DNA of 64,000 nt from the NCBI GenBank assembly GCA_049975485.1, contig JBNGDC010000005.1, positions 25,928 to 89,927 of the forward strand. Direction: 5' to 3'. How positions within the stretch are numbered: position 1 is the stretch's first letter; every line of letters starts with the position of its first letter. The translations under genes were made by a program, and so were the position numbers. The notes beneath the pieces are model-generated. The model made no database searches, was not told where the DNA came from, and was given only the letters and a program-made list of their open reading frames with translations. This document shows, piece after piece, positions 15,026-45,490 of the stretch. The stretch is from Phycisphaerae bacterium (GTDB lineage: Bacteria > Planctomycetota > Phycisphaerae > SM23-33).

Positions 15026-15097
15026 GGGGCCGCGACAAGCTTGACCGCCGGCCCCCGGCGCGGAGACCGACCGTCGAGTGTGCAGGATGCAATTGAC

Positions 15098-29230: not shown

Positions 29231-29247
29231 TGCAAGAAGCGTGCCGG
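29231..29247 (-). promoter_or_regulatory. Sigma-54 promoter of the fliK-to-flgL unit
   Basis: Minus strand CCGGCACGCTTCTTGCA, with correct GG-N10-GC spacing. The -12 element is ~30 nt upstream of the fliK ATG. Confidence 0.65.
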
Positions 29248-31406: not shown

Positions 31407-31454
31407 GGACAGTCACCTATTTTTGCTGTGTAAAATAGGTGACTGTCCCTATTT
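31401..31454. repeat. REP-like perfect palindrome (left)
   Basis: AAATAGGGACAGTCACCTATTTT-TGCTGTGT-AAAATAGGTGACTGTCCCTATTT. The TAG stop of the upstream activator lies inside the left arm. Confidence 0.9.
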
Positions 31455-31501
31455 AATTACGGGCTTGACACTGGGTGTAATGGGACCATAAATGGTTGCT
31501 C

Positions 31502-32176
31502 ATGCCTAGAGTAGCAAGAGTTGTCATTCCGGGCTGTCCGCATCATGTTACTCAGCGGGGCAATAATCGGCAGGACGTGTTCTTCACCGACGACGACCGC
31601 CGCGCATATCTCGAAATTCTCCGCGAGCAGTGTGAACGCTTCGGTTTGGGCGTCCAGGCGTACTGCCTGATGACCAATCACATTCATCTGGTGGCTACAC
31701 CTGCGACAGGGGAATCCTTGGCCAAAGCCGTCGGACGGACGAACTGGCGCTACGCCCAGCATGTCAATAGGTGGCATGCCCGAAGCGGCCACTTGTGGCA
31801 GAATCGATTCTATTCGTGTCCGTTGGATGAGCAGCACTTCTGGACAGCCGTGACGTATGTCGAGCGCAACCCGGTACGCGCGGGAGTTGTGCGGGTTGCC
31901 TGGGAATATGCGTGGTCGAGTGCAGGCGCCCATGTGGGTGGTAGCGATCGGAGTGGGCTGCTGGATATCGCACAGTGGCGCGAATGGTTGCCCCGCGCCG
32001 GCGACTGGCGAGAAGCGCTGGGCAGACCCGGGGAGGCGGGGAGAGTTGAGCAACTCCGTGGTGCGACTATAGCGGGGCGACCGCTGGGCAGCGATGATTT
32101 CATTGCCAAGCTTGAAACAGCTATTGGACGTCGCCTGCGACGACTACCGGTTGGTCGCCCCAAAAGACGCAACTAA
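31502..32176 (+). CDS. REP-associated tyrosine transposase (IS200/IS605-like Y1, RayT/TnpA-REP type)
   Basis: MPRVARVVIPGCPHHVTQRGNNRQDVFF, the HUH motif in NHIHLV, and the catalytic Tyr context YVERNPVRAG. A TTGACA -35-like hexamer lies at 31465-31470. Confidence 0.85.
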   Translation: MPRVARVVIPGCPHHVTQRGNNRQDVFFTDDDRRAYLEILREQCERFGLGVQAYCLMTNHIHLVATPATGESLAKAVGRTNWRYAQHVNRWHARSGHLWQNRFYSCPLDEQHFWTAVTYVERNPVRAGVVRVAWEYAWSSAGAHVGGSDRSGLLDIAQWREWLPRAGDWREALGRPGEAGRVEQLRGATIAGRPLGSDDFIAKLETAIGRRLRRLPVGRPKRRN

Positions 32177-32230
32177 AATAGGGACAGTCACCTATTTTCC
32201 ACAGCAAAAATAGGTGACTGTCCCTATTTT
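32175..32230. repeat. REP-like perfect palindrome (right, inverted relative to left)
   Basis: AAAATAGGGACAGTCACCTATTTT-CCACAGCA-AAAATAGGTGACTGTCCCTATTTT. The loop is the reverse complement of the left loop apart from one base. Confidence 0.9.
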
Positions 32231-32373
32231 AGCCAGTGTGTGAAAAGCAAACGTCGCGCGCATAAACTCCTGACATCCCGACAGCGGGCCGGAGTTGCCG
32301 CCTTGGGGGTGCTCTTTCGTTAGACATTATTACACAGGGTCTTAGGCGCTGGGGCCGGCGCGGGATTTCAGTG

Positions 32374-32389
32374 TGGCACATCACTTGCA
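32374..32389 (+). promoter_or_regulatory. Sigma-54 promoter (consensus-perfect) of the long plus-strand flagellar unit
   Basis: TGGCACATCACTTGCA. Confidence 0.7.
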
Positions 32390-32470
32390 ACCAGAATTGC
32401 GGCGCGGGCCGTGCGCGGTGACCGCAGCCAGGCCCTTCGTAACGCCTCGGACGGACTGCCGGGGCAGGCA

Positions 32471-35167
32471 ATGCGAATCGACGGATCGATGGCAGAGACG
32501 GAGAATCCAAACACGGATCAGCCCCAGGGCGACGAGCCGGTCGAGCAGCCCGGCGACCAGGCCGACCCCGTCCAGGCGGACGAACCACAGGCCGGCGACC
32601 CGGCTGCCCCGGAGCAGGCCGACCAGACGCCGTCCGGTGGCGCAGACGATGCGCCGCAGGACGACGCGGCTCCTGCTGCCGAAGCCGACGACGCCACGGC
32701 CGAAGCTGCGCAGGACTCCCAACACGGACAGCAGGACGAGTCCGACGCAGCTTCCGGTCGGACGGCTGAGCCGCCGGCCGGGGAGCAGGCACCACCGGCG
32801 CCTGCCGCAGAGCAGACGGCGCCACCGTCGAATCAGCCGTCGGAAACCGCCGCTCAACCGCCGGATGCCTCCGTCGGTTTCGATACCTCGGCTTTTCTTG
32901 AGGAACACGAAACCCCGTGGCACAAGCGCGTCCCGCTGGTTCCTCTGTTGCTGGGTTTCAACACACTTGTCGTCTGCTTCCTGCTGGCGGTTATCGTCTT
33001 TGTGGTTACCGGAGGCCCGAAGACACCGCACGAGGCCTCCGCCTACACTTCCGACGAGTCGGCCGTGGTCAGCAGACCGGAACGTGACGGCGACGAATCT
33101 CCCATTGAGCCGCCCCGGGTGGAACCGCAGGCCTGGCAGAAGGCCGAGCGGGCGTTCAGGAACCAGGATTTTTCCGAGGCCCTGGGCTACTACGGCCACT
33201 TGCTGGATGCGGCGCAGGGTCGTCCGGTGGATGCGTTCGTGGTGGACTATCTGCGTCTGCGCAGCGGCGATTGCCTCATCCGGCTCGGTCGCAGCGACGA
33301 GGGCCGCGAGCTGCTCGAGCGCGTCAGCAGCAGCGGTTCGCCGATAGTGCGGGCCGTCTCAAACTATTTGCTGGCCGAGCTGGAGCTCAGAACGGAACGA
33401 TACCCGGCCGCCCGGCGGCGGGCTTACACGGCCATCGCGGCTTTGGGCGCGCTTGAGCGGGATATGCCGCTGGAGCGTGACTGCGACTACCTTATCGCGC
33501 GGGCGCTGACGGAAAGCGCCATGCGGTTCTTCAACCCCGACGAGCCGATTCCCTGGTCCGGATACAATGCCTCGGATCCCTTCACCGGCCTGGACGACTC
33601 CGCCTTGCGTCGCCTGCTGCACGATGGCGCCGAACGGATGGCCGAGTCGGTCCTTGGCCCGGAGGTCTCTCCCGCCCGGCGAACGGATGCGGCGCGGTTC
33701 TGGTCGGTAAGCTGCTGGCAGGCGACGCTGGAAGAAGTCCTCTACAGGTTTGCATCGGCCTGCGAAATGGACGTTCACTGGGCGTCGGCCGCCCCTCCCG
33801 TCCGTCAGAGAGGCATATCGCTGGCGTTCCGGGAGGTCGGCGAGCACCGCCTGTTCGAGGTGGCCTGCGGAATGGCCGGTCTGGTGGCGCGTTTCAATCG
33901 CGACGAGGTGGAAATATACGACGCCGACGCCATCAGCTCCCTGTCGGACAAGCGGGAGCTTCTCAAGGCCGAGGCCGTCTCCGTGTGGCGGCGGTTCTTC
34001 CTGCGGGCATCGGACGACCATCGTCTGCCGGTGGGGCACTTCGCGCTCGGGCGGCTCTACGAGTGTGCCGGAGAAACCGCCGACAGCATGCGCGAGTACC
34101 GGCTTACGGCCGGTCGCTTTCCACGTCACGAGCTGGCGCCGCGAGCTTTGTTGCGGAAGGCCCAGATACAGATATCTCTACGCGACTACACCGGCGCCCG
34201 CAACGATCTGCTGGACCTGCTGGATCTGTATCCGGACTACCCGGCCGTTGCGGACGTGTACCTCTATCTCGGGCGCAGCGCGCTGAAAACCGGGCTGTGG
34301 GACGAGGCGATCCGCACCTTCCGGAAACTCTACTACCTGGAGTTGTCCAAGGCCTCGCGACTGGAGGCGTGCCGGGGGGTGGCAAGGAGTTTCTTCGAGA
34401 AGGGCAACTACAGCGAGTCCCGCAATTGGTACGAGCGATACTTCCAGCAACTTGACGACCAGTCCGGAGAGGCGCCGGCCGAGGCGTTCCACACCTGGGG
34501 ACGCTGCGAATCGGCGTTGGGCAATCTCGACAGGGCGGCGGCGGCCTACCGCCTGGCTTTGGGGGCCGGTGGTCCGTCGGAGCTGCGCGCCCGCGCGTCG
34601 TTGGACCTGGCGGATGTCGAGCTGCAGAGGCAGAACTTCGTCGGCGCCCTGGGGCTGCTGAACGAACTGGATCCCACTTTGCTCGACGAGCAGCAGAACT
34701 ATGACCGCCTGAGGCTGCAGGCAAGGGCGCTTCGCGAGATGGGGTTGCCGTTGCGTGCCCGACGGATGCTTTCGCGTCACATGCCGGAGGTCTCCGACGC
34801 CCACCAGCGGGCCATGCTGGCTGTTGAGACCGCCAAATGCCTGGTGGACGAAGAAAAGGGCGACGAGGCCCGTGATGTGCTGGTCGGGGCACTTGGCGAG
34901 ATGACCCCCTGTGCGGAAAGCTACGAAGCCGCACTGTATCTCGCAAATCTGTGCCTTCAGGACGAGCGTTATCGCCAGGCCGCCGAGGTCGCAGAGACCT
35001 TGGTGAACAGCTCCGCCGGCGAACACATCCGCCGTCAGGCGCAGGAGCTTCTGGGCATGGCTCGCGCGTGCCAGCGGGACTACGGCGCCGCGGCGGAGGC
35101 ATTCTCGATGGACGACGATGAGTTCTCCACCGACGTGCCGGACGACGGCGAGGAGACCATGCCATGA
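32471..35167 (+). CDS. Large single-pass membrane TPR protein with an acidic/Pro-rich N-terminal tail and a possible STN-like insert
   Basis: ORF 32411..35167. I list the first ATG (MRIDGS), which lies downstream of the predicted TSS; the start is uncertain. About 130 aa of D/E/P/Q/A low complexity, then the TM helix VPLVPLLLGFNTLVVCFLLAVIVFVV, then many TPR-like helices. Residues encoded around 33710-33930 (ATLEEVLYRFASACEMDVHWAS...GLVARFNRDEVEIY) resemble a secretin/TonB N-terminal (STN) module. Confidence 0.7.
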   Translation: MRIDGSMAETENPNTDQPQGDEPVEQPGDQADPVQADEPQAGDPAAPEQADQTPSGGADDAPQDDAAPAAEADDATAEAAQDSQHGQQDESDAASGRTAEPPAGEQAPPAPAAEQTAPPSNQPSETAAQPPDASVGFDTSAFLEEHETPWHKRVPLVPLLLGFNTLVVCFLLAVIVFVVTGGPKTPHEASAYTSDESAVVSRPERDGDESPIEPPRVEPQAWQKAERAFRNQDFSEALGYYGHLLDAAQGRPVDAFVVDYLRLRSGDCLIRLGRSDEGRELLERVSSSGSPIVRAVSNYLLAELELRTERYPAARRRAYTAIAALGALERDMPLERDCDYLIARALTESAMRFFNPDEPIPWSGYNASDPFTGLDDSALRRLLHDGAERMAESVLGPEVSPARRTDAARFWSVSCWQATLEEVLYRFASACEMDVHWASAAPPVRQRGISLAFREVGEHRLFEVACGMAGLVARFNRDEVEIYDADAISSLSDKRELLKAEAVSVWRRFFLRASDDHRLPVGHFALGRLYECAGETADSMREYRLTAGRFPRHELAPRALLRKAQIQISLRDYTGARNDLLDLLDLYPDYPAVADVYLYLGRSALKTGLWDEAIRTFRKLYYLELSKASRLEACRGVARSFFEKGNYSESRNWYERYFQQLDDQSGEAPAEAFHTWGRCESALGNLDRAAAAYRLALGAGGPSELRARASLDLADVELQRQNFVGALGLLNELDPTLLDEQQNYDRLRLQARALREMGLPLRARRMLSRHMPEVSDAHQRAMLAVETAKCLVDEEKGDEARDVLVGALGEMTPCAESYEAALYLANLCLQDERYRQAAEVAETLVNSSAGEHIRRQAQELLGMARACQRDYGAAAEAFSMDDDEFSTDVPDDGEETMP

Positions 35168-35892
35168 ACCTGCGTGCATTGATCACATCGTCGGCGATTG
35201 TGTTGCTGACCGCGGCGTCCGGGCCGGCCGCGCCGGACGGGCAGCCCGCCGAGCGGGAGCCGCTGGACACCGAGTTGCATGAGCTTATCGAGACTGTCAG
35301 CGGCACCGCGCAGCAGCTCTGGCGCGAGAGCATAGAGGCCCCGCCGCAAGTTGACGGTTCGCGGCTGTCAGAAATGGTCGGCGAAATTCAGCTTCTACGT
35401 CTGGACCCAGAGGACGCGCTCAATCGGAGCCGGCAGACACAGGAGCCCGTGGCTTCCTCCCGGGAGCCGACGACCCGTCCCACTGCCGAAGAGCGGCCCG
35501 GCGACGGCCGCAGAGAGCAAGTAGCAGAGGAGGTGCTTGCGCAGTTGCAGGCCTCGGCTCCCAGAGACCCGGCCAGGGCGACGCAACTGGCGGACACGCT
35601 CTTTGCCGACGAGCACTACGAAGCTGCCTACGCGCTGTACGAGGCGGTCCTTGAGCATGAGACCTCCGAACAGCGGGCCTCTTGGCTGGTGTTCCAGATG
35701 GCCAACTGCAGGAAGTACAGTGACCCCGAAACCGCCCGGCAGCTCTATCTGCAACTTATTGAGCAGTACCCCAACAGCAGGTGGGTTGAGGCGGCCAGGG
35801 TGCAGGAGAAGATCATCCACTGGCAGCAGGTAAACGAGCCGCGGGCCGTGCTGCGGCAGGCCCGTGGAAACACCCGCAGAGACACTGATTAA
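35164..35892 (+). CDS. Secreted protein with a C-terminal TPR/YbgF-like region
   Basis: 242 aa. ATGA overlap with the upstream gene. Signal peptide MNLRALITSSAIVLLTAASGPAAP. ADTLFADEHYEAAYALYEAVLEH...LIEQYPNSRWVEAARV. Confidence 0.65.
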   Translation: MNLRALITSSAIVLLTAASGPAAPDGQPAEREPLDTELHELIETVSGTAQQLWRESIEAPPQVDGSRLSEMVGEIQLLRLDPEDALNRSRQTQEPVASSREPTTRPTAEERPGDGRREQVAEEVLAQLQASAPRDPARATQLADTLFADEHYEAAYALYEAVLEHETSEQRASWLVFQMANCRKYSDPETARQLYLQLIEQYPNSRWVEAARVQEKIIHWQQVNEPRAVLRQARGNTRRDTD

Positions 35893-35926
35893 GCGTCACC
35901 ATATGCCCGGCAGAGACAAGACAGAT

Positions 35927-37306
35927 ATGTCCGAGCGAGTCCATCAGAACGTTCTGGTTGTGCACCGGCAGTGCGAAACGACGCGGCTGGTGCTGGAGCG
36001 ACTGGCGGCACGGGGTCTGCGCGGCGCGGTGGAGGCCGACGCGTCGGTGGCTGCGGATAAGGTGGCTCAGGGCAGGTGGGACCTGGTGCTGGTCGCTCCC
36101 GAGGCCGTCGGCGAGAAGGCATTCGACCTGCTTTCCGGCGTCAAGGAGAGCTTCCCCGAATTGCCGGTGGTGATGCTGGGCAAACGCGACGACACGCACC
36201 TTGCCGTTCGCGCCTTGCGCAACGGCTGCGACGACTATCTCATCGAGCCGGCGACCAGCGAAGCCATTGAGGACATGCTGGACTCGCTGCTTCCCAGTCA
36301 TGCCGTCAGCAACGCTGCGGCTGCCGAGGATGGTAACCGCCGGCTCCTGCAGATAGCCGGTCGCAGCGACGCGCTGCGGCGGACGCTGGAGCTGGCGCGC
36401 AAGGTCGCGCCGACTTCAATACCCGTGCTCATCACCGGCGAAAGCGGCACGGGCAAGGAACTGGTGTCGTACTTCGTGCATCGTCAAAGCCAGCGGCGCC
36501 GCGGGCCGTATATACGCGTAAACTGTGCGGCCGTTACCGAGTCGCTGCTGGAGAGCGAGCTGTTCGGTCACGAGCGGGGCGCGTTCACGGGAGCATACTC
36601 CCAGCGCAAGGGTCGTTTCGAACGGGCGCACGGCGGGACGCTGCTTCTGGATGAGATTTCCGAGACCACTCCCCGGCTGCAGGCGGAGCTTCTACGGGTC
36701 CTGGAGCAACAGGACTTCGAGCGCGTCGGAGGGACCGAGCCGGTCTGCGTGAACGTACGGGTTATCAGCACCTCCAACCGCGAGCTGTCCGCCGAGACGC
36801 GCGCCGGGCGGTTCCGGCACGATCTGTTCTACCGTCTCAGCGGCGTACACCTTGTGGTGCCTCCCCTGAGGCAGCGCCCGGAGGATATTCCCGTTCTGAC
36901 GTGGCATTTTGTGAATCTTTACGCCCACGAAGTCCGGCGCTGCATACGCGAGCTGGACGAGCAGATGCTGAAGCTGTTCGAGCAATACAGTTGGCCCGGC
37001 AATGTTCGCCAGCTCCGCAACGTGGTGCGAACGGCGCTGGTGCTGGGCGAGGGTGAGACGCTCTCGCTGGACGGCGCGCCCTGGCTGGCGGCGGAGATGA
37101 GGCGCTGCGACTCTCCGAACCTGGACGCAGAGAGCCTGCGTCTGCAGGAGCTGGAAAGGCAGGCGATCTTTGAGGCCTTGCGGCGGACCAAACGCAACCA
37201 GACCAAGGCCGCCCGCCTGCTGGGCATAACCGACCGCACGTTGAGGGAAAAACTCAGGCGATACAGGCAGGACGGATACGCCGTTCCCACCGGAGGCGGC
37301 AAATGA
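35927..37306 (+). CDS. Second sigma-54-dependent activator with a pseudo-receiver domain
   Basis: About 459 aa from MSERVHQNVLVV (an alternative ATG lies at 35903). GESGTGKELVSYFVH, GAFTGA, HTH AARLLGITDRTLREKLRRY. All REC phosphorylation residues are replaced: HR for DD, Ala for the phospho-Asp in WDLVLVAPE, Gly for Thr, Glu for Lys. Confidence 0.85.
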   Translation: MSERVHQNVLVVHRQCETTRLVLERLAARGLRGAVEADASVAADKVAQGRWDLVLVAPEAVGEKAFDLLSGVKESFPELPVVMLGKRDDTHLAVRALRNGCDDYLIEPATSEAIEDMLDSLLPSHAVSNAAAAEDGNRRLLQIAGRSDALRRTLELARKVAPTSIPVLITGESGTGKELVSYFVHRQSQRRRGPYIRVNCAAVTESLLESELFGHERGAFTGAYSQRKGRFERAHGGTLLLDEISETTPRLQAELLRVLEQQDFERVGGTEPVCVNVRVISTSNRELSAETRAGRFRHDLFYRLSGVHLVVPPLRQRPEDIPVLTWHFVNLYAHEVRRCIRELDEQMLKLFEQYSWPGNVRQLRNVVRTALVLGEGETLSLDGAPWLAAEMRRCDSPNLDAESLRLQELERQAIFEALRRTKRNQTKAARLLGITDRTLREKLRRYRQDGYAVPTGGGK

Positions 37307-37656
37307 CCAGAAACATCCAGACCATCGAGACTCTTCAGGCGGCGCTGCGGGCTGTCAGCATGCGGCAGAACGCCATCGCCAACAACATCGCCAACAGCGA
37401 GACGGCCGGCTATCGCCGACAGGATGTGAAGTTCGAAGAGCTTTTGGCCAAGGCGCTGGACTCCGACGGCCGCATCAACATCTCGGAAGTCCGACCGGAG
37501 CTGTACCGCCCCATGGACAGCCCCGTGGGCAGCAACGGCAATGACGTGAGCATGGAAGCAGAGGTCGGTGAGCTTATCGAGAATACCGCAAGGTACAAGA
37601 CCTACATGCGGCTGCTGGCGAGGCAGTACCGCAAGATGGAGCTGGCGGCTCAGTGA
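37303..37656 (+). CDS. flgB: Proximal rod protein FlgB
   Basis: 117 aa. RQNAIANNIANSETAGYRRQDV. ATGA overlap with the activator gene. Confidence 0.9.
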   Translation: MTRNIQTIETLQAALRAVSMRQNAIANNIANSETAGYRRQDVKFEELLAKALDSDGRINISEVRPELYRPMDSPVGSNGNDVSMEAEVGELIENTARYKTYMRLLARQYRKMELAAQ

Positions 37657-37670
37657 GCCGGAGGTGAGAG

Positions 37671-38075
37671 ATGAGCACAGGCGGCGTTTCACCGGTGAGA
37701 ATAGCGACATCCGGACTGGAGGCGCAGCGGCGTCGGCTGGACGTAATCGCCAACAACATCGCCAATGCACACACCACCCGCGGACCCGGCGGCGAGCCGT
37801 ACCGGAGGCGGGAGGTGGTGCTCTCGGCCGCGGACAAGCAACTCTCCGGCGTGGATATCCGCGGGGTGTTCGAGGACCGGCTTACGGACTTCCAGCAGGT
37901 GTATCAGCCCGGTCACCCCGACGCCGACGAGGAGGGCTTCGTGTTGATGCCCAACGTGGAGCTGCCCGTTGAGATGGTCAATATGGTCAGCGCCAGCCGG
38001 GCCTACGAAGCCAACGCCGCCGTTCTCAAGAGGTACCAGGAACTGGTGGACGCGACACTGGAGCTGCTGAGGTAA
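37671..38075 (+). CDS. flgC: Proximal rod protein FlgC
   Basis: 134 aa. RLDVIANNIANAHTTR and the C-terminus EMVNMVSASRAYEANAAVLK. Confidence 0.95.
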   Translation: MSTGGVSPVRIATSGLEAQRRRLDVIANNIANAHTTRGPGGEPYRRREVVLSAADKQLSGVDIRGVFEDRLTDFQQVYQPGHPDADEEGFVLMPNVELPVEMVNMVSASRAYEANAAVLKRYQELVDATLELLR

Positions 38076-38086
38076 GGAGCAAAACG

Positions 38087-38398
38087 ATGGCCGGTATAAA
38101 TCCAGTATCCGGAGCAGGTCCCACCTGGCCGCAGGCCGCGACAGGTCCCGGCCGGGCCGCAGGCGGCGCCGGCGAACAGCAGGGCTTCAGCAACCTGTTG
38201 AAGACCTATGTCGAGAACGTGGACTCCGACCAGCGAGCCAGCGCCCAGGCGATACAGGACCTCATTTCCGGAAAGACCAACGACGTGCTGCCGGTGGTCG
38301 AATCGGCCGCTCAGGCGGACATGAGCTTCAAGCTGCTTATGGGCGTGAGGAACAAGGTCATCGAGGCCTACAAGCAGACCATGAACATGCAGATATGA
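38087..38398 (+). CDS. fliE: Hook-basal body complex protein FliE
   Basis: 103 aa. The C-terminus QADMSFKLLMGVRNKVIEAYKQTMNMQI. Confidence 0.85.
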   Translation: MAGINPVSGAGPTWPQAATGPGRAAGGAGEQQGFSNLLKTYVENVDSDQRASAQAIQDLISGKTNDVLPVVESAAQADMSFKLLMGVRNKVIEAYKQTMNMQI

Positions 38399-38423
38399 CC
38401 GCCGTCGGAGTTGACAGCCAATC

Positions 38424-39926
38424 ATGACGCCGATGCTTCAAAACCTCCAACAGGTATGGAAAGGCATGGGGCTTATCCAGCGGGTGATCCTGCTGGGTGT
38501 GCTGCTGGCGTGCATCGGTGCGATGGCCCTTCTGGTCGGCTGGGCCAGGCAGCCGGAGATGACGCTGCTCTACAGCGACCTTTCACCGGACGAGGCCGCC
38601 GAGATAGTCGAGAACATCTCCGACGAGGGCGTCGAGCATGAGCTGAGAAGCGGCGGTACCAGCATCTACGTACCAAAAGAGCACGTTTACGACCTTCGGC
38701 TGAAGATGGCCTCGGCGGGATTGCCGCAGGGCTCTCACGCCGGCTATCAGATCCTGGACGAGGAGAAGATCGGCGCCAGCCCCTTCTCGCAGAGGGTGAA
38801 CTACACGCGGGCGATCGAGGGCGAGCTGGCCAAGACCATAGAGCTTATCGACGGAGTGTCATCGGCGCGAGTGCACGTGGTCCAGCCGGAAGCGCCGGTG
38901 TTCGCCGGTGAAAAGCGACAGCCCTCGGCGACGGTGGCGGTGAGACTGCACCCCGGGCGGCGTCTGAGCAGTGGGAACGTGGCCGCCATCGTGCACCTGG
39001 TCGCCGGCAGCGTCGAAGGACTGACTCCTTCCAAGGTGGTGGTGGTGGATGCGGGAGGGAATCTGCTCACCTCGGAGAATGAAAGCGAACTGGCCCGCAG
39101 CGCCGACACGCTGCTGGACTACCGCACCCAGGTGGAGCAGTACCTATCCAACAAGGCCGAGGAGATGCTAACGGCCGTGCTCGGTCCCAATCGCGCATCC
39201 GTCAGGGTAAGCGCCACCATCAACACGCGCAGCTTGAGCGAGACCGTCGAAACTTACGATCCCGACGGAAAGGTCATCACCAAAGAGACCATAGAGAGCA
39301 CCCAGAGCAGCTCCCCCGACGGTGGCGGTGGCGGAAACGCCGGAAACAGCAAGGAAGAGAACATCATTACCGAGTTCAGGGTCGGAAGGACTCTTCGTCA
39401 GCAGCAGGAGCTGCCCGGCGATATAGAGTCCCTGTCGGTGGCGGCGTTCGTTGACCTCTCGGGTCCTCAAGCCGAGGGCGCGGGCGAGGAAGGCGCCGCC
39501 GCGGCATCGGCCGCTCCGTCCATGACGGTCGAAGACGCCGAGGAAATCATCCGCAACGCGCTGGGCCTGGAGGCCGACGCTCCCGTGAAGGTAGTCAACA
39601 TGCCCTTCCACTCGCACCAGCAGGCGGAGATGGCGCCACCGGAGCCGGACGGGGGCATCTTGCCGCTTATTCTGGAGATTGCCAGGCGCTCCTCGCTGGG
39701 CATCCTGGTCATAGGGGCGCTGGTGGCGTTGAGGATGTTCACCGGAAAGAGCAAGGCCCGGACGGCAGCGCTGGAGGCGGCCAACAGCGAACAGAATTAT
39801 CTACCCTCGGATGGTGAAGACGACTCCGAGCAGCTCCGAAGGCGCATAACACGAGCGCTGCAGGACAACCCTGAAGAAGTCAAGCGACTGTTCCTCAGTT
39901 GGGTCAAGACCGAGGAAGGAGGTTAA
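38424..39926 (+). CDS. fliF: MS-ring protein
   Basis: 500 aa. N-terminal TM, then LLYSDLSPDEAAEIVENISDEGVEHEL..GGTSIYVP, and a second TM near the C-terminus. Confidence 0.9.
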   Translation: MTPMLQNLQQVWKGMGLIQRVILLGVLLACIGAMALLVGWARQPEMTLLYSDLSPDEAAEIVENISDEGVEHELRSGGTSIYVPKEHVYDLRLKMASAGLPQGSHAGYQILDEEKIGASPFSQRVNYTRAIEGELAKTIELIDGVSSARVHVVQPEAPVFAGEKRQPSATVAVRLHPGRRLSSGNVAAIVHLVAGSVEGLTPSKVVVVDAGGNLLTSENESELARSADTLLDYRTQVEQYLSNKAEEMLTAVLGPNRASVRVSATINTRSLSETVETYDPDGKVITKETIESTQSSSPDGGGGGNAGNSKEENIITEFRVGRTLRQQQELPGDIESLSVAAFVDLSGPQAEGAGEEGAAAASAAPSMTVEDAEEIIRNALGLEADAPVKVVNMPFHSHQQAEMAPPEPDGGILPLILEIARRSSLGILVIGALVALRMFTGKSKARTAALEAANSEQNYLPSDGEDDSEQLRRRITRALQDNPEEVKRLFLSWVKTEEGG

Positions 39927-39929
39927 GCG

Positions 39930-40946
39930 GTGCCCAGCAGCGGAGCACGCAAGGCGGCGCAGCTACTGGTGGACCTGGACCCGGGCACGGCCGGTGAGCT
40001 GTTGAAGTCCGCCGACGAGCAGACCATGAAGGAAATCGTCGCCGAGCTGGCGTGGATCAGCAGCAGCGGTCGCCCCGGCGGCGGCGACGGCGAACGCCCG
40101 GTGCGGGAGTTCTCCGAACTGGTCGCCCAGAAAGACCGGAATCTGTCCGGGCAGCTCTTTCTGGACGCGTTGCTGGACTCCGCCGTCGGTAAGGACCGCG
40201 CCGAAGAGGTCCGCCGTGAAGCAAGTGAGCTGGTCCGGGCGAGGGAGCCGTTCTCCCCGATCCGTTCGGCCGACGTGGAGCACATCGCTTCCGCCCTGGC
40301 GGGCGAGCCGCCCATGGTCGCGGCTATGGTGCTTTCGGAGCTTCCTCCGGGCAAGGCCGCGAAGTTGCTGCCCCTGCTTGACGAGGAAGTCCGCCCCAAG
40401 GCGGTAATGGAAATGACCAGCGGGCGAAGCGCCAATCCCGACATCCGCCTCCGCATCGCCAGGCAGGTGTGCAGCCGCCTGGAGGCGTTGAAGTGGCAGG
40501 AGTCCGGCGGCGCGCAGCAGAAGGAATCCGACGCCCAGCGGAAGCGACGTCTTCGCAGCGTAGCCGTGATACTTCAGGGACTGAGCAGCGAGCTGTGCGA
40601 GGCGCTGCTGGAGGGACTGAACCAGACCGACCCGGAGACATGCAAGCTGGTGCGGAACCTCATGCTCATCTGGGAGGACATACCGCGCGTGGCCGACAGG
40701 TCGCTGCAGGAAGCGCTGCGTACGCAGGAACCGCAGACCCTGGCGATGGCGCTGTACGAGGCCCAGCCGAGGATTGCCAAGAAAATCCGCTCAAACATTT
40801 CCGAGCGTGTCGCGGCGCTGGTGGACGAGGAGCTTTCGCTGCTGTCGTCCCCGAAGCCCGAGAAGATTCTGGAAGCCCGCGAGACCATTCTGGAGGTCCT
40901 GCGGGACATGAACGCCAAGGGCGAATTGACGCTGGAAGAGGCATAA
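39930..40946 (+). CDS. fliG: Rotor switch protein FliG
   Basis: 338 aa, GTG start. ARKAAQLLVDLDPGTAGELL, and the C-terminal torque-helix region NISERVAALVDEE. Confidence 0.9.
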   Translation: MPSSGARKAAQLLVDLDPGTAGELLKSADEQTMKEIVAELAWISSSGRPGGGDGERPVREFSELVAQKDRNLSGQLFLDALLDSAVGKDRAEEVRREASELVRAREPFSPIRSADVEHIASALAGEPPMVAAMVLSELPPGKAAKLLPLLDEEVRPKAVMEMTSGRSANPDIRLRIARQVCSRLEALKWQESGGAQQKESDAQRKRRLRSVAVILQGLSSELCEALLEGLNQTDPETCKLVRNLMLIWEDIPRVADRSLQEALRTQEPQTLAMALYEAQPRIAKKIRSNISERVAALVDEELSLLSSPKPEKILEARETILEVLRDMNAKGELTLEEA

Positions 40947-40949
40947 GCG

Positions 40950-41519
40950 GTGAGCCAGGTCGTGGAAATCAAGCTGCCCGCACCGCCGGCCGACGTGGGT
41001 ATCGCAGGCGCCGGCGGCGACGAATCACCTTCGCAGGCGGCCAACGAGCGGGCACTGGAGCAGCTCCGCGAGCAGATGAACCGCGAGCTTCAGAAGGAAC
41101 GGGCGGCTGTGGCTTCGTCGCAGAAGGCGCTGCGGGAAGCCGCCCGGCAATTGAACGAGATTCAGCAGCAGGTGGTCGCCGACGCAGAGCAGCAGCTTGT
41201 CGAGCTGGCCGTGGAGATAGCGGGTAAAATCCTGGCCCAGGAAATCAAGTCCCAGGGCTATGAGATCGACCCCATAGTCAAGGAAGCACTTTCCCAGGCG
41301 CCCACCCGCAAAAGCGTGGTGGTGCGTCTGAATCCCGAGGACCTGCCCCGCTGCGAACTGGCCGGCGGACAGGACGATTCCGACGCCGACATCCGCTTCG
41401 TGGCCGATGCTGGTGTTCCACCGGCTGGGTGCGTGGTGGAAACGGAAGAGGGAGTCGTGGAGTCCGACCCTCAGCAGCGGCTCAAGGACGTTGGCGAGAA
41501 CCTTAAGGAACCGGAATAA
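40950..41519 (+). CDS. fliH: Export ATPase regulator FliH
   Basis: 189 aa, GTG start. Coiled-coil, then LVELAVEIAGKILAQEI. Its position between fliG and fliI supports the call. Confidence 0.75.
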   Translation: MSQVVEIKLPAPPADVGIAGAGGDESPSQAANERALEQLREQMNRELQKERAAVASSQKALREAARQLNEIQQQVVADAEQQLVELAVEIAGKILAQEIKSQGYEIDPIVKEALSQAPTRKSVVVRLNPEDLPRCELAGGQDDSDADIRFVADAGVPPAGCVVETEEGVVESDPQQRLKDVGENLKEPE

Positions 41520-41521
41520 CC

Positions 41522-42913
41522 GTGGTCGTGGACCTGAGCAAATACCGCAGCAAGCTCCGGACGGTTGGTGCCGCGGCCTGTCGCGGGTCGGTGGTGCGCG
41601 TGGCCGGTCTGACCGTGGAATCCAAGGGTCCGCCCGTGGGTATCGGTCAACTGTGCGACATCCGGCTTTCCGACGGCAGGAGGATACCGGCCGAGGTAGT
41701 GGGCTTTCAGGACACGCACCGGATACTCGTGCCGCTGGAAGGCGTGGAGGGCATAGCCCCCAACGACCCGGTGCTGGTGCGCAGCTCGCCGCGGACGATA
41801 CGCCTGGACGATTCCATCCTGGGCCGTGTCATCGACGGTCTGGGCAGGCCCATCGACGGCAAAGGCCCGCTGTCCGGCGCCGAATACCGCTCCATCGAGA
41901 ACACCTCCCCGCCGCCGCTGGCGCGGAAGCGCATCACGGAACCGCTGGCGACCGGGATACGCGCCATCGACGGTATCATCACCTGCGGGCGCGGGCAGCG
42001 GATGGGCATATTCTCCGGCAGCGGCGTCGGAAAGAGCACGCTTCTCGGCGAGCTTGCCCGCACCAGCGACGCGGACGTAAACGTGCTGGCGCTGGTCGGC
42101 GAGCGAGGCCGGGAGGTCAGGCAGTTCCTGGAAGAGTCGCTTGGTCCGGACGGTCTGAGCCGAAGCGTGGTGGCCGTCGCCACCTCCGACGCTTCTCCCA
42201 TCCAGCGGGTAAAGGTGGCATTTACGGCCATCACCGTCGCGGAATATTTTCGCGACAAGGGCCTGAACGTGATGTTCATGATGGATTCGATTACGCGCTT
42301 CGCCCAGGCGCAGCGGGAGATCGGCCTGGCCGCCGGCGAGCCGCCCACCACCAAGGGATACTGTCCGAGCGTCTTCAGCTTGCTGCCGAAGCTGACCGAG
42401 CGTCTGGGCTGCGGTCAGACCGGCAGCATCACGGGAATGTTGACCATCCTGGTCGAGGGCGACGATCTGGCCGACCCGGTGGCCGACAGCGTGCGGTCGT
42501 TGCTGGACGGTCACGTGGTGCTCAGCCGCAAGCTTGCCGAGATGGGTCACTATCCGGCCATCGACATACTCCAGAGCGTCAGCCGGTTGATGAGCACGGT
42601 TGTGGACGAGGAGCACCGCCTTGCGGCCCAGCGGTTCCGCGCCATCTACGCCACGTACCTCGGGGCCGAGGACCTCATCAACATCGGAGCGCTGTCGCCG
42701 GGCAGCAATCAGCGGATAGACAAGGCGGTCTCGCTGATAGACCGGGTGAACGAGTTTCTGGTTCAGGACGTGGGCGAGCGGTCGGACTTTGTCGAGACGG
42801 TACGTCGCCTCAAGGACATAACGGCCTCGTGGGAATTCCTGTTGCCGACCGACGGTCAGGCCGCCAAGGCCGGCGCCGCGCAGGGCTCCCCGGCCGGTGA
42901 GGTGCGCCGATGA
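41522..42913 (+). CDS. fliI: Flagellum-specific ATPase
   Basis: 463 aa. Walker A GSGVGKSTLLGELAR, Walker B VMFMMDSITRFA. Confidence 0.95.
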   Translation: MVVDLSKYRSKLRTVGAAACRGSVVRVAGLTVESKGPPVGIGQLCDIRLSDGRRIPAEVVGFQDTHRILVPLEGVEGIAPNDPVLVRSSPRTIRLDDSILGRVIDGLGRPIDGKGPLSGAEYRSIENTSPPPLARKRITEPLATGIRAIDGIITCGRGQRMGIFSGSGVGKSTLLGELARTSDADVNVLALVGERGREVRQFLEESLGPDGLSRSVVAVATSDASPIQRVKVAFTAITVAEYFRDKGLNVMFMMDSITRFAQAQREIGLAAGEPPTTKGYCPSVFSLLPKLTERLGCGQTGSITGMLTILVEGDDLADPVADSVRSLLDGHVVLSRKLAEMGHYPAIDILQSVSRLMSTVVDEEHRLAAQRFRAIYATYLGAEDLINIGALSPGSNQRIDKAVSLIDRVNEFLVQDVGERSDFVETVRRLKDITASWEFLLPTDGQAAKAGAAQGSPAGEVRR

Positions 42914-43389
42914 AGCGTTTTCACTGGCGACTTCAGCGCGTGCTGGACGTAACGGTTCAGCGCGAAAAGGCGCTGCGGGCGGAGTTGTTCGCCCTCAGTC
43001 GGCGGATCGTGCGGCTTCGTCAGGAGATTATCCGCCGTCGGGCCGATTTGCGGAGTGTCCTGGCCGACCTGGGAGGCCGTCCACCGGCGGAGCGCATGGC
43101 GCGCCAGGAGGTGTTCATGCGATGTGCCGAGGCGGTCGAGCGCGAAATTGCCCGCCTCGACCGGGACGCTCGCGAACTGGAGTCACGCCGTTCGGAACGG
43201 ACCCAGACCTTCCTGCGGCTTCGGTCCAGCCGTCAGACGCTGGAGCGGATGCGCGAGGAGGCCTATCGCCAACATATGCGCGAGCAACTGAAAATGGAAC
43301 AGAAGCAGTTCGACGAGAGCGCACAGATTTCCTTCGCCCGAATGGCCTCTGCCGGCGCTGAGCCGGCGGCCGAAGGGAGCGGACAATAA
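42910..43389 (+). CDS. fliJ: Export chaperone/stalk protein FliJ
   Basis: 159 aa coiled-coil, MKRFHWRLQRVLDVTVQREKALRAEL. Its position after fliI supports the call. Confidence 0.75.
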   Translation: MKRFHWRLQRVLDVTVQREKALRAELFALSRRIVRLRQEIIRRRADLRSVLADLGGRPPAERMARQEVFMRCAEAVEREIARLDRDARELESRRSERTQTFLRLRSSRQTLERMREEAYRQHMREQLKMEQKQFDESAQISFARMASAGAEPAAEGSGQ

Positions 43390-44048
43390 TGAGCAAGAAG
43401 CTGCGGATAATGGTAATGGTCACCTTGGCTCTGGCGGCGTTCGGGGCATCGCTGATGTTCTCGTGGTCTCGCGGTTCCTCCGAACCTGCGGAGTCCGGCG
43501 AAGGCGAACCGGCCGGGCAGACCCGGGAGCCCTCGGGCGACCTCCTTGCGCAGTATGCCGAGAAGGCGTCCATGCAGCTGCAGCCCAGCGAGGCAGAATT
43601 GCACCAGCTCGTTCAGGACCTTCGCGAGAAGAGGCGGGAACTGGACCGTCGCCGACGCGAGTTGGACCAGCGCCAGCGCCAGATCGAACTGGCTGAGAAC
43701 CTCCTCAGCAAGCAGGCCGAAGAGCTGGAGAACCTGCGACTGGAACTGAATGCGCCTCTGGCGACGCTCAAGGAGGCCACCAGACAGCTCCAGGCGACAC
43801 GGGAGATCATCACCCGCAGCGAGCAGGCGAACCTTCAGGGCATTGCCGCCAAATACGAGCGTATGGACGAGAACGCCGGCAGCGAGATTCTGGTGAGCAT
43901 GTGCCGGAACGGTCAGGAATCCGACGTCGTGAAAATCCTATATTACCTTTCCGACCGCATGTCCGCGAAGATGCTCGGCGCAATCGAGGACCGGGAGCTG
44001 GCGGCGCGTCTGCTCGAACGGATGAAGCGAGTCGAGGAAGAGGGATAG
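43389..44048 (+). CDS. MotE/YlxF-like (MgtE_N-type) flagellar motility protein
   Basis: 219 aa. N-terminal TM, a coiled coil, then IAAKYERMDENAGSEILVSM...VVKILYYLSDRMSAKMLGAI. It occupies the same position as ylxF after fliJ in B. subtilis. Confidence 0.6.
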   Translation: MSKKLRIMVMVTLALAAFGASLMFSWSRGSSEPAESGEGEPAGQTREPSGDLLAQYAEKASMQLQPSEAELHQLVQDLREKRRELDRRRRELDQRQRQIELAENLLSKQAEELENLRLELNAPLATLKEATRQLQATREIITRSEQANLQGIAAKYERMDENAGSEILVSMCRNGQESDVVKILYYLSDRMSAKMLGAIEDRELAARLLERMKRVEEEG

Positions 44049-44824: not shown

Positions 44825-45490
44825 ATGATTCCCCGTCGCAGGAAAAAGACCAACGACGACTCAGCCCCCGGCTGCGGGTGGATGGTTACGTTCAGCGACT
44901 GCATGACGCTGCTGTTGTGCTTTTTTGTCATGCTGCTGACGTTCTCGGCATTCGACGAGAACCGTCTGGCCCAGTTCATGGGCGGGCTGAAGCTGATGGA
45001 CTACAACTCGCTGTTCCCGCCGGACGATACGCTGGTCAGTTCCATGGTTCCACCGCCGCCGCAGGAGGTGGACCGGACCCCCGAGGGAAGCGAAACACCG
45101 ACGGATGAGTTCCTGGAGGTGCTGGAGAATCCCCAGAAGTCGAGGGATCTGACCGACCCCGGGGCTTTCAGCGACCATAAGGTGTTTTACCTGCCGTCGA
45201 GCGAGATCTTCTGGGCGCAGGGCAGCGGCCTTACGCCCGGCGGGCGAGGCAAGCTGTCGCTGATAGCGGAGATGATGAAGCTCGTCCCCTCGCGCGTGGT
45301 GGTCCGCGAGATTGGTTCCGACGGGCGGACTCGCAGCGACGAGGCCGGTCTTGAAAGATGCAACGCTGTTGTTGATTTCTTCGCACGGCAGAGAGTCAGG
45401 CGGGACCTTCTGTTCGTCTCGGCCGACAGCTCGCCGGCGAAGCAGTCTGGCTGTATCGAAATATCGCTGTTGAAGCACGAGGAACGCTGA
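44825..45490 (+). CDS. motB: MotB paralog 1 (plug/TM with conserved Asp; degenerate OmpA-like domain)
   Basis: 221 aa. GCGWMVTFSDCMTLLLCFFVMLL. The C-terminal OmpA-like fold is present, but the LSxxRA peptidoglycan motif is poor (GLERCNAV). Confidence 0.8.
   Translation: MIPRRRKKTNDDSAPGCGWMVTFSDCMTLLLCFFVMLLTFSAFDENRLAQFMGGLKLMDYNSLFPPDDTLVSSMVPPPPQEVDRTPEGSETPTDEFLEVLENPQKSRDLTDPGAFSDHKVFYLPSSEIFWAQGSGLTPGGRGKLSLIAEMMKLVPSRVVVREIGSDGRTRSDEAGLERCNAVVDFFARQRVRRDLLFVSADSSPAKQSGCIEISLLKHEER

What the first reader, a model, noticed from the sequence alone, without database searches (positions are those of the whole stretch)
32374..35892. A large TM-anchored TPR protein and a secreted TPR protein are the first genes of the sigma-54 rod/MS-ring/export operon
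Seen in sequence: the consensus sigma-54 promoter TGGCACATCACTTGCA is followed first by an ~900-aa protein, not by flgB. That protein has ~130 aa of cytoplasmic D/E/P/Q-rich low complexity, a single TM helix and a long periplasmic TPR array. The array is interrupted by a segment that looks like a secretin/TonB N-terminal (STN) module. Next, with an ATGA overlap, comes a 242-aa signal-peptide protein with a YbgF-like TPR end. The second activator and flgBC-fliE... follow. Established knowledge: Campylobacter PflB (TM plus TPR) and PflA (periplasmic TPR) form stator-scaffolding rings. Inference: this pair could be an independently evolved or highly diverged periplasmic scaffold or collar for this motor. 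Its position ahead of the structural genes would guarantee early co-expression.
Basis: partly seen in the sequence, partly recalled or inferred. Interest (0 to 1): 0.64.

Follow-up and report, generated by a model that had tools for sequence, protein, structure and literature searches.

The report
Planctomycete flagellar TPR pair, candidate scaffold
Two tetratricopeptide-repeat envelope proteins, one membrane-anchored with a secretin-N0-like domain in its middle and one secreted, are always encoded together with a sigma-54 activator inside the flagellar gene clusters of Phycisphaerae-type planctomycetes, which makes them good but untested candidates for a periplasmic motor scaffold of the kind already proposed to be widespread.

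Summary
An exact sigma-54 promoter (32374-32389) precedes an 892/898-aa gene (32489 or 32471 to 35167). That gene encodes an acidic disordered N-terminal tail, one TM helix and a periplasmic TPR superhelix. The superhelix is interrupted by an 85-aa alpha/beta domain whose predicted fold matches secretin N0/STN domains, although no sequence model detects it. A 242-aa exported TPR protein follows with an ATGA overlap. Next come a second sigma-54 activator and flgBC-fliE-fliFGHIJ.

In all 19 related loci examined, all planctomycete MAGs, the trio big TPR, small TPR and activator B sits inside a flagellar cluster. The genes downstream are either flgBC-fliE... or fliL-fliMN-flhA, so "first genes of the rod/MS-ring operon" is true only for one clade.

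There is no specific sequence or structural link to PflA/PflB beyond TPR. PflB's defining beta-pair is absent.

A 2025 preprint and a 2026 review already propose that an E-ring (FlgY) with TPR spokes is ancient. They list about 750-990-aa TPR proteins near planctomycete flagellar genes as potential PflA homologues.

The best reading is an inner-membrane-anchored periplasmic scaffold or assembly pair (about 0.45). The rivals are a regulatory partner of activator B, or a placement/envelope factor. Interest is moderate.

The parts
32242..32290 (+). Conserved 49-nt element about 85-130 nt upstream of the promoter. It is a candidate activator-binding (UAS) or IHF region.
   Evidence: Nearly invariant in the alignment of window, L001 and L011, while the flanking sequence diverges. 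The function is inferred.
32374..32389 (+). Sigma-54 (-24/-12) promoter TGGCACATCACTTGCA.
   Evidence: Only exact consensus in the window, with 0.01 expected by chance. Conserved upstream of the orthologous gene in 9 of 9 loci.
32489..35167 (+). Big TPR gene: 892 aa from the conserved ATG 32489, or 898 aa from ATG 32471. It encodes a bitopic inner-membrane protein.
   Evidence: ORF, TPR Pfam hits, AF2 model with pLDDT above 90 for residues 220-880, start-codon conservation.
32489..32938 (+). Cytoplasmic acidic low-complexity tail (A/P/D/Q/E-rich, disordered).
   Evidence: pLDDT about 30. Net charge is -32. The sequence is not conserved, but acidic A/P/E/D-rich tails of 0-479 aa recur across the family.
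32939..33010 (+). Single transmembrane helix (P0001 residues 157-180), oriented N-in.
   Evidence: Helix in the model. 129 of 148 family representatives have exactly one TM-like segment. Basic residues precede it.
33125..33532 (+). N-terminal periplasmic TPR block (residues 219-354).
   Evidence: Pfam TPR_19 hit at residues 229-286. Helical hairpins in the model.
33662..33919 (+). Secretin-N0/STN-like alpha/beta domain (residues 398-483) inserted in the TPR array. It is preceded by two linker helices (376-395).
   Evidence: Domain model pLDDT 85.7. Foldseek hits include PilQ N0 4ar0 (E 1.3e-3), InvG N0 (rmsd 2.5 A over 75 aa), GspD N0 4jtm (target-normalised TM-score, TMt, 0.72), DotD and PupA. 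There is no Pfam STN hit. The domain profile finds 265 clusters, almost all with the same architecture.
33941..35119 (+). C-terminal periplasmic TPR superhelix (residues 491-883, about 11 helical hairpins).
   Evidence: Pfam TPR_16, TPR_2, TPR_6, TPR_12 and ANAPC3 hits. Model. Generic TPR Foldseek hits.
35164..35892 (+). Small TPR gene (242 aa). It has a signal peptide, a Pro/Glu-rich flexible region with conserved motifs, and a C-terminal 2-3-repeat TPR of YbgF/CpoB/BamD type (residues ~118-214). Its start overlaps the big gene's stop (ATGA).
   Evidence: The profile search found 98 homologues.
35927..37306 (+). Sigma-54 activator B (degenerate receiver, AAA+ domain, Fis-type HTH). It is the invariant downstream neighbour of the pair. 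An alternative start is at 35903. Its stop overlaps the flgB start.
   Evidence: Pfam. Synteny. The receiver lacks NtrC D54, D11, D12 and K104 equivalents.
37303..42913 (+). flgB, flgC, fliE, fliF, fliG, fliH and fliI, tightly packed downstream. This is context: the putative same transcription unit.
   Evidence: ORFs, precomputed Pfam hits in orthologous loci, and no terminator-like site between the end of the small gene (35892) and 38500, the limit of the scan.
43389..44048 (+). FlgY/FlbB/MotE-like candidate E-ring gene directly after fliJ (TM/signal, coiled coil, C-terminal MgtE_N-like helices). It is the possible partner of the TPR pair.
   Evidence: Translation. Conserved in L019 and L020. 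Weak NCBIfam collar_FlbB hit, E 0.0077, below cutoff. No Pfam MgtE_N hit. Position fits the rule in PMC13023049.
30000..31406 (+). Sigma-54 activator A (FleQ-like, degenerate receiver). It is the upstream neighbour in 15 of the 16 loci whose upstream flank is held.
   Evidence: Pfam. Synteny. Alignment.

Best explanation
The two genes encode an envelope protein pair that belongs to the flagellar apparatus of Phycisphaerae-type planctomycetes.

The big protein is a single-pass inner-membrane protein. It has a disordered acidic tail in the cytoplasm. In the periplasm it has a roughly 660-residue TPR superhelix carrying a secretin-N0-like domain. The small protein is exported to the periplasm. 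It consists of a long flexible segment plus a short TPR.

Both are made from a sigma-54 promoter, presumably switched on by the upstream FleQ-like activator A. Activator B and early, inner-membrane-proximal flagellar genes are made from the same promoter.

[quoted passage not shown] It would position or stabilise stator units (MotA with two MotB paralogues). Functionally this resembles PflB/PflA of Campylobacterota, FlcA/FlcB of spirochaetes and MotC/MotK of alpha-proteobacteria. In this picture the N0-like domain and the small protein's flexible segment supply protein-protein contacts.

Shown: gene structure, topology signals, folds, promoter, and conserved flagellar synteny.
Inferred: co-transcription, periplasmic assembly, ring or spoke formation, and stator contact.
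For: - Synteny: big TPR, small TPR and activator B are adjacent inside flagellar clusters in 19 loci, down to 29% identity and in two more distant members.
- The central-domain profile finds 265 clusters at the 50% identity level. Almost all are 650-1220 aa with the domain mid-protein and one TM helix.
- The sigma-54 promoter is exact and conserved.
- Topology: a TM helix preceded by basic residues. The small protein and 98 homologues carry N-terminal signals.
- The N0-like fold is a periplasmic protein-protein or ring-contact module in secretins, T3SS and T4BSS.
- A FlbB/FlgY-like gene follows fliJ.
- Within the 47-kb cluster, these are the only periplasmic TPR proteins found among the ORFs that were scanned.
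- Literature: E-ring plus TPR spoke or rim proteins are proposed to be ancient and widespread. Large TPR proteins near planctomycete flagellar genes are listed as potential PflA homologues (PMC11870540 sections 10 and 31 and Suppl. Table 5; PMC13023049).
Against: - No experiment or transcript data exist for any member.
- There is no similarity to PflA, PflB or collar proteins beyond generic TPR.
- PflB's defining beta-pair is absent.
- The small protein is far smaller than PflA, and its sequence shows no AMIN domain.
- The tightest linkage is to a transcription activator, not to a structural gene.
- The FlgY-like assignment of ORF 43389-44048 is below threshold.
- The pair evolves faster (25-38% identity) than neighbouring structural genes (40-60%). 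This fits accessory proteins, but it also fits non-structural roles.
Confidence: 0.45

Rival explanations
1. Regulatory module. The pair is the input device for activator B. It would be an envelope or assembly-state sensor that replaces the FlrB/FleS-type kinase. It would control a kinase-independent sigma-54 activator, much as FliX controls FlbD in Caulobacter.
For: - Big TPR, small TPR and activator B are invariant even where the downstream genes differ, flgBC... versus fliL-fliMN-flhA.
- The cassette order, activator A then the pair then activator B then fliE/F/G..., mirrors flrA-flrBC-fliEFG of Vibrio and fleQ-fleSR-fliEFG of Pseudomonas (established knowledge).
- Activator B's receiver is degenerate. 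The K104 equivalent is lost in all orthologues aligned. The D54 equivalent is lost in the window (A), L001 (A), L007 (G), L008 (E) and L019 (E).
- No histidine kinase was found among the cluster's ORFs.
Against: - The only cytoplasmic part of the big protein is a non-conserved low-complexity tail, 0-479 aa long, with no recognisable signalling domain.
- The small protein is exported.
- Co-operonic placement with a regulator is also expected for any class II structural gene.
Confidence: 0.2
2. Placement or envelope-assembly factor. The pair is not a permanent motor part. It would either mark the site of flagellar assembly, as a HubP/FimV/TipN-like landmark, or organise local peptidoglycan and outer-membrane passage, as a CpoB/BamD/PilF-like TPR helper for P/L-ring or rod penetration.
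For: - Long acidic disordered cytoplasmic tails recur in the family. They recall HubP and FimV (own knowledge).
- No flhF or flhG lies between flhA and fliA or elsewhere among the cluster's scanned ORFs.
- The TPRs of both proteins are nearest to YbgF/CpoB, BamD, PilW and PorW models, all below threshold.
- N0 domains belong to envelope-spanning machines.
Against: - All these resemblances are below family cutoffs.
- There is no LysM, AMIN, OmpA or other PG-binding domain.
- Expression with MS-ring, rotor and export genes fits a basal-body component at least as well.
Confidence: 0.2
3. Generic TPR proteins that merely hitch-hike in the cluster, with no flagellar function.
For: TPR proteins are abundant in planctomycetes, and the sequence models give only generic TPR hits.
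Against: Position and order are conserved in 19 of 19 loci across 25-75% identity, with a conserved sigma-54 promoter and translational coupling.
Confidence: 0.03

Closest known systems
PflB (Campylobacter jejuni / Helicobacter pylori), the inner-membrane-anchored TPR 'rim' that holds MotB dimers
   Same: It has an N-terminal TM motif followed by a long periplasmic TPR array of about 800-900 aa, divided into two blocks by a beta-containing element. It is encoded by a flagellar accessory gene. Its partner is a second, secreted TPR protein whose flexible loop wraps its N-terminal TPRs (PMC11870540 section 5).
   Different: No sequence relationship is detectable. Structural similarity is no better than to any TPR protein (9hmf_K ranks 24th, TM-score 0.17-0.19). 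PflB's beta1 strand pairs with its last five residues. Here the middle element is a complete five-to-six-strand, two-helix N0-like domain, and the C terminus is disordered. pflB is not part of a sigma-54 activator cassette.
PflA / MotC / MotK / FlcB / CC_2058, the secreted TPR 'spoke' proteins that bind the FlgY/MotE/FlbB E-ring
   Same: These are exported periplasmic TPR proteins encoded near flagellar genes. A FlgY-like gene is present in the same cluster. Feng et al. list planctomycete TPR proteins of about 750-990 aa, often with a second of about 300-350 aa, as 'potential PflA'.
   Different: The small protein is 242 aa with only 2-3 TPRs and no AMIN or beta-sandwich hit. The big protein is TM-anchored, unlike PflA. 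Homology is not demonstrable.
FlcA (BB0326) and the spirochaete collar
   Same: It is a large TPR protein that forms an inner-membrane-proximal periplasmic structure together with FlbB and is needed for stator assembly (own knowledge; PMC8609358 and the 2026 FlcE preprint appear but were not read). The window's FlbB-like ORF gives a weak NCBIfam collar_FlbB hit.
   Different: No NCBIfam collar family was hit by either TPR protein. Planctomycete flagella are external and keep the P and L rings (flgI and flgH are present).
Secretin N0 / STN domain (PilQ, GspD, InvG N0; FecA/PupA signalling domain; DotD)
   Same: The fold of residues 398-483 matches, with rmsd 2.1-2.9 A over 70-83 residues and Foldseek probability about 1.
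   Different: There is no sequence-profile match. The domain is embedded in the middle of an inner-membrane-anchored TPR protein, rather than at the N terminus of an outer-membrane secretin or TonB-dependent transducer.
flrA-flrBC-fliEFGHIJ (Vibrio) / fleQ-fleSR-fliEFG (Pseudomonas) regulatory layout
   Same: A master sigma-54 activator is followed by a sigma-54-dependent operon that encodes a second sigma-54 activator and MS-ring, rotor and export genes.
   Different: The slot of the sensor kinase is occupied by the two TPR envelope proteins. Activator B's receiver is degenerate.

Membership tests
PflB (flagellar TPR rim protein) | N-terminal transmembrane motif | tested here: met
   Helix 157-180 in the model. 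129 of 148 family representatives have exactly one TM-like segment.
PflB (flagellar TPR rim protein) | Antiparallel beta-pair between a mid-protein strand and the last about 5 C-terminal residues (PMC11870540 sections 5 and 10) | tested here: not met
   The model shows a full N0-like alpha/beta domain at 398-483. Residues 882-898 are disordered, with no C-terminal strand.
PflB (flagellar TPR rim protein) | Detectable sequence or specific structural homology to PflB | tested here: not met
   A PDB profile search finds only generic or designed TPRs. Foldseek places the C. jejuni scaffold chain 9hmf_K at rank 24 with TM-score 0.17-0.19.
PflB (flagellar TPR rim protein) | Forms a ring that holds MotB and binds the PflA loop | not testable with these tools
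   This needs cryo-ET or interaction assays.
PflA / potential-PflA TPR spoke proteins | Operational criterion of Feng et al.: at least 3 TPRs, no enzymatic domain, within five genes of flagellar genes, in a genome with FlgY | tested here: met
   The big protein has many TPRs, lies inside the cluster and has no other Pfam domain. The FlgY-like ORF is only putative.
PflA / potential-PflA TPR spoke proteins | Signal peptide, N-terminal AMIN-like beta-sandwich and about 17 TPRs | tested here: not met
   The small protein has a signal peptide but is 242 aa with 2-3 TPRs and no AMIN hit. The big protein has a TM anchor and no beta-sandwich. The structure of the small protein was not predicted.
STN / secretin N0 domain (PF07660) | Match to the Pfam STN profile | tested here: not met
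   No hit at E<=10 for the isolated segment or for five homologues. A PDB sequence-profile search found nothing.
STN / secretin N0 domain (PF07660) | N0 fold (beta-alpha-beta-beta-alpha-beta-beta) | tested here: met
   Foldseek hits include PilQ, InvG, GspD, XcpQ, MxiD and EscC N0 domains, DotD and PupA, with rmsd 2.1-2.9 A and TMt up to 0.72. E-values are modest, 1e-3 to 0.1.
STN / secretin N0 domain (PF07660) | Located at the periplasmic N terminus of an outer-membrane secretin or TonB-dependent transducer | tested here: not met
   The domain is embedded between TPR blocks of an inner-membrane-anchored protein.
YbgF/CpoB (TIGR02795) | Score above the curated cutoff, and tol-pal context | tested here: not met
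   The proteins score 25.5 bits (small) and 61.4 bits (big) against a cutoff of 90.1. The context is flagellar, not tol-pal.
FlgY/FlbB/MotE/YlxF E-ring protein (for ORF 43389-44048) | Adjacent to fliJ or fliK, with an N-terminal signal or TM | tested here: met
   The ORF lies directly after fliJ. Its N terminus is MSKKLRIMVMVTLALAAFGASLMF. It is conserved in L019 and L020.
FlgY/FlbB/MotE/YlxF E-ring protein (for ORF 43389-44048) | C-terminal MgtE_N (PF03448) ARM-like domain | tested here: inconclusive
   There is no Pfam hit at E<=5. NCBIfam collar_FlbB scores E 0.0077 and 16 bits against a cutoff of 110. The motif resemblance is judged by eye only.
Sigma-54-dependent flagellar operon | Conserved -24 GG / -12 GC promoter with a cognate activator nearby | tested here: met
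Sigma-54-dependent flagellar operon | Co-transcription of the pair with activator B and flgB | not testable with these tools
   Only DNA metagenome runs hold the sequence. Overlapping or short junctions and the lack of terminators are suggestive.

The most novel reading that the evidence does not exclude
Planctomycetes built their own inner-membrane-anchored flagellar scaffold by inserting a secretin-N0-type module into a TM-TPR protein. This would be a second, independent case of secretin or type IV pilus periplasmic modules being recruited into a flagellar motor; Campylobacterota used AMIN and N1 modules. The same pair might also feed assembly state to the kinase-less sigma-54 activator encoded immediately downstream. 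That would couple scaffold assembly to the next tier of flagellar gene expression.
Probability: 0.2. Interest if true: 0.7.

Novelty: new variant of a known kind. Interest (0 to 1): 0.45.

Why it matters
If the pair is a motor scaffold, it gives the PVC superphylum a concrete parts list for the 'E-ring plus TPR spokes' model. No flagellar motor from this superphylum appears among the cryo-ET structures listed in the papers read here. It would also show a TPR scaffold protein with a secretin-N0-like module, which bears on how motors recruit parts from other envelope machines. The invariant coupling to a sigma-54 activator with a degenerate receiver also offers a testable route to how planctomycetes, whose flagellar regulation is unstudied, order flagellar gene expression without a cluster-encoded kinase. 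If the pair proves regulatory or a placement factor, that would be a new type of component for either role.

Tried and rejected
1. Pfam STN or any non-TPR domain in the big protein: none, even at E<=10, on the isolated segment and on five homologues.
2. PDB sequence-profile searches:
   - central domain: only chance p53 hits;
   - whole protein: only generic or designed TPRs, no PflA or PflB;
   - small protein: CpoB at E 0.03;
   - FlgY-like ORF: coiled-coil noise.
3. Foldseek of the whole model: dominated by eukaryotic TPR superhelices and uninformative for PflB.
4. The search for homologous proteins with the central-domain profile returned a single fragment. The exhaustive representative search was needed instead.
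5. The search for related loci with the 9-sequence alignment failed because no conserved stretch was found. It worked with 5 sequences.
6. RNA evidence for co-transcription: no RNA runs hold the sequence.
7. Canonical two-component control of activator B was rejected for the window, because the phospho-acceptor and the conserved Lys are missing.
8. NCBIfam collar, PflA, FlgT and MotX/Y-type families: none hit by either TPR protein at E<=1.
9. The structure of the small protein was not predicted. Both prediction slots went to the big protein and its central domain.

Full report
**What is in the sequence.**

The window (64% G+C) is held by a freshwater-sediment metagenome. It carries a roughly 47-kb flagellar supercluster.

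- On the minus strand lie a GT2-TPR gene, flgL, flgK, flgN, a rod-binding flgJ-like gene, flgI, flgH, flgA, flgG, flgF, an unknown 385-aa gene, flgE, flgD and fliK.
- On the plus strand lie sigma-54 activator A, an IS200-like Y1 transposase gene, the two genes of the finding, sigma-54 activator B and flgB-flgC-fliE-fliF-fliG-fliH-fliI-fliJ. Next come an unknown 219-aa gene, motA, two motB paralogues and fliL-fliM-fliN. Further downstream are fliP-fliQ-fliR-flhB-flhA, a 78-aa ORF, fliA, flagellin, fliD and fliS.

TGGCACATCACTTGCA at 32374-32389 is the only exact TGGCAC-N5-TTGCA site in the window, and 0.01 such sites are expected by chance.

The large ORF ends at 35167. ATG 32489 is conserved in two relatives, whereas ATG 32471 is not, so the protein is most likely 892 aa. 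The 242-aa ORF starts at 35164 inside an ATGA overlap. Activator B follows after 10-34 nt, and its stop overlaps the flgB start. No terminator-like site lies on the plus strand between the end of the small gene (35892) and flgB.

**Anatomy of the big protein.**

AlphaFold2 with nine homologues gave pLDDT above 90 for residues 220-880. Residue numbers in this section count from ATG 32471 (P0001, 898 aa).

- Residues 1-163 are disordered.
- There is one helix at 157-180.
- TPR-like hairpins span 219-354.
- Two linker helices span 376-395.
- An alpha/beta domain spans 398-483.
- An 11-hairpin TPR superhelix spans 491-883.

The 152 residues before the membrane helix are A/P/D/Q/E-rich with net charge -32. 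Basic residues precede the helix, which puts the N terminus in the cytoplasm.

Pfam and NCBIfam see only TPR. YbgF, PorW, BamD and PilW models score below their cutoffs.

The domain modelled alone (pLDDT 85.7) gives Foldseek hits that are nearly all N0-type domains:

- PilQ N0 (E 1.3e-3);
- InvG, MxiD and EscC N0 (rmsd about 2.5 A over 70-78 residues);
- GspD and XcpQ N0 (TMt up to 0.72);
- DotD;
- the PupA signalling domain;
- a FecR-like protein;
- phage baseplate hubs.

The fold assignment is therefore supported, but family membership by sequence is not.

**Anatomy of the small protein.**

It has an N-terminal signal-like segment. So do almost all of 98 homologues found with a profile, many of them after a long basic n-region. 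A Pro/Glu-rich region with a few conserved motifs follows. The protein ends in a conserved C-terminal 2-3-repeat TPR. That TPR is nearest to CpoB/YbgF, but only at E 0.03 and 25.5 bits against a cutoff of 90.1. I did not predict its structure.

**Conservation and context.**

A single-sequence search found only eight relatives of the big protein, at 29-75% identity. An exhaustive profile search with the central domain found 265 clusters at the 50% identity level, 241 of them at E<=1e-10. Almost all are 650-1220 aa with the domain in the middle. Of 148 representatives, 131 have a TM-like segment and 129 have exactly one. Their cytoplasmic tails range from 0 to 479 aa and are mostly acidic and A/P/E/D-rich, with net charge down to -107. 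The composition of the tail recurs across the family, but its sequence does not.

I examined 19 distinct loci, all planctomycete or Phycisphaerae MAGs (a few are mislabelled).

- In every one, big TPR, small TPR and activator B are adjacent and lie inside a flagellar cluster.
- Activator A is immediately upstream in 15 of the 16 loci whose upstream flank is held; L020 is the exception.
- Downstream genes differ by clade. They are flgBC-fliE-fliFG... in the window's clade and fliL-fliM-fliN-flhA-fliA in five loci.
- A sigma-54 promoter is conserved upstream of the big gene in all nine loci checked.
- A 49-nt element at 32242-32290 is nearly invariant among close relatives, so it is a candidate activator site.

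**Comparison with known scaffolds.**

Foldseek with the whole model returns generic TPR superhelices. The C. jejuni periplasmic scaffold chain 9hmf_K ranks 24th with TM-scores of 0.17-0.19, no better than eukaryotic TPR proteins. A PDB sequence-profile search returns no PflA or PflB.

Feng et al. (bioRxiv 2025, PMC11870540) define PflB by two features: a TM motif, and an antiparallel pair between a mid-protein strand and the last five residues. The TM motif is present here. The beta-pair is not. Instead there is a complete N0-like domain and a disordered C terminus.

PflA has a signal peptide, an AMIN-like sandwich and 17 TPRs. It is unlike the 242-aa small protein.

The general scheme does fit. 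The gene directly after fliJ (43389-44048) has a TM or signal segment, a coiled coil and C-terminal helices resembling MgtE_N. It is conserved in two distant loci and gives a weak, sub-threshold hit to NCBIfam collar_FlbB. It has no Pfam MgtE_N hit. Feng et al. and the 2026 review (PMC13023049) propose that FlgY/FlbB/MotE E-rings with TPR partners are ancient. Their Supplementary Table 5 lists FlgY homologues for planctomycetes, together with 'potential PflA' TPR proteins of about 750-990 aa. A second TPR protein of about 300-350 aa is often listed too. The Phycisphaerae Algisphaera agarilytica (827 aa) and Poriferisphaera corsica (860 aa) are among the entries. The class to which this finding belongs has therefore been catalogued, but not characterised. 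I found no description of the N0-like insertion or of the activator cassette.

**Mechanism.**

I commit to this reading. Activator A drives the sigma-54 promoter. The resulting transcript encodes the two envelope proteins, activator B and early inner-membrane-proximal parts. The big protein inserts with its N terminus inside and presents a long TPR surface and an N0-like contact module in the periplasm. The small protein is exported and binds it. One possibility is that its flexible segment lies along the TPR groove, as the PflA loop does on PflB (an analogy, not a test). [quoted passage not shown]

Shown: the genes, folds, topology signals, promoter and synteny.
Inferred: everything about assembly and partners.
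Confidence is about 0.45.

**Rivals.**

*Regulatory input to activator B (about 0.2).* The trio is invariant. The layout mirrors flrA-flrBC-fliEFG, with the pair in the kinase slot. Activator B's receiver has lost the conserved Lys in every orthologue aligned. It has also lost the phospho-acceptor Asp in the window, L001, L007, L008 and L019. Against this, the only cytoplasmic part of the big protein is a non-conserved low-complexity tail.

*Placement or envelope-assembly factor (about 0.2).* The acidic tails recall HubP and FimV. No flhF or flhG lies in the cluster. The TPRs are CpoB/BamD/PilW-like. All of these resemblances are sub-threshold.

*Hitch-hiking TPR genes (about 0.03).* The synteny contradicts this.

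**Verdict.**

I rate it a new variant of a known or proposed kind, of moderate interest.

Noticed in passing
window 31404-32226: An IS200-like Y1 transposase gene (31496-32176, Pfam Y1_Tnp E 3.9e-16) is flanked by two copies of the same 48-nt, 20-bp-stem hairpin (31404-31451 and 32179-32226). This is a REP/RAYT-like insertion between activator A and the conserved promoter region. It is absent at the same place in L001. The hairpins probably also insulate the sigma-54 promoter from upstream transcription.
   Followed up: partly
window 43389-44048: The 219-aa ORF directly after fliJ has a TM/signal segment, a coiled coil and C-terminal MgtE_N-like helices. It is a likely FlgY/FlbB/MotE/YlxF E-ring homologue. 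Only a weak NCBIfam collar_FlbB hit (E 0.0077) supports this, and there is no Pfam hit. It is conserved in L019 and L020.
   Followed up: partly
window 44825-45490 and 45490-46245: Two consecutive MotB paralogues follow motA. The first (221 aa) has the MotB plug/TM but no detectable OmpA-like peptidoglycan-binding domain. The second has only a weak OmpA hit (E 1.4e-4, below cutoff).
   Followed up: no
window 35903-36340 and 30036-30440; alignment A5: Both sigma-54 activators have degenerate receiver domains. In activator B, NtrC D54 is replaced by A, D11/D12 by H/R, and K104 by E. Some orthologues keep the Asp but none keeps the Lys. No histidine kinase gene is in the cluster.
   Followed up: partly
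window 23891-25048 (-): A conserved unknown gene (385 aa; 341-396 aa in L002, L004-L006, L008, L009 and L020) lies between flgE and flgF. It has only a faint PilZ/YcgR-type hint (PilZNR at E 0.12 here; a weak PilZ hit in L002).
   Followed up: no
window 54042-54278: No flhF or flhG lies between flhA and fliA. A 78-aa ORF of unknown function sits there instead, and 79-80-aa ORFs occupy the same position in L006, L008 and L009.
   Followed up: no
window 29231-29246 (-), 15088-15103 (-), 48357-48372 (+): There are further sigma-54-like sites with one mismatch. They lie upstream of fliK-flgD-flgE, of the GT2-TPR gene, and of the fliP block. Exact consensus sites lie upstream of the divergent fliK/flgD operon in L002, L004-L006, L008 and L009. 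The annotated fliK start (29267) lies upstream of its promoter, so the true start must be further downstream.
   Followed up: partly
window 13943-15025 (-): A glycosyltransferase family 2 protein with a C-terminal TPR lies at the edge of the flagellar cluster, next to flgL. It may be a flagellin-modification or GmaR-like gene.
   Followed up: no
window 32390-32488: The roughly 90-nt leader between the promoter and the conserved ATG is itself highly conserved among window, L001 and L011 (for example GAATTGCGGCGCG.GCCGTGCGCG..GACCGCA). It is more conserved than the start of the coding region, so it may be a structured or regulatory 5' UTR.
   Followed up: no
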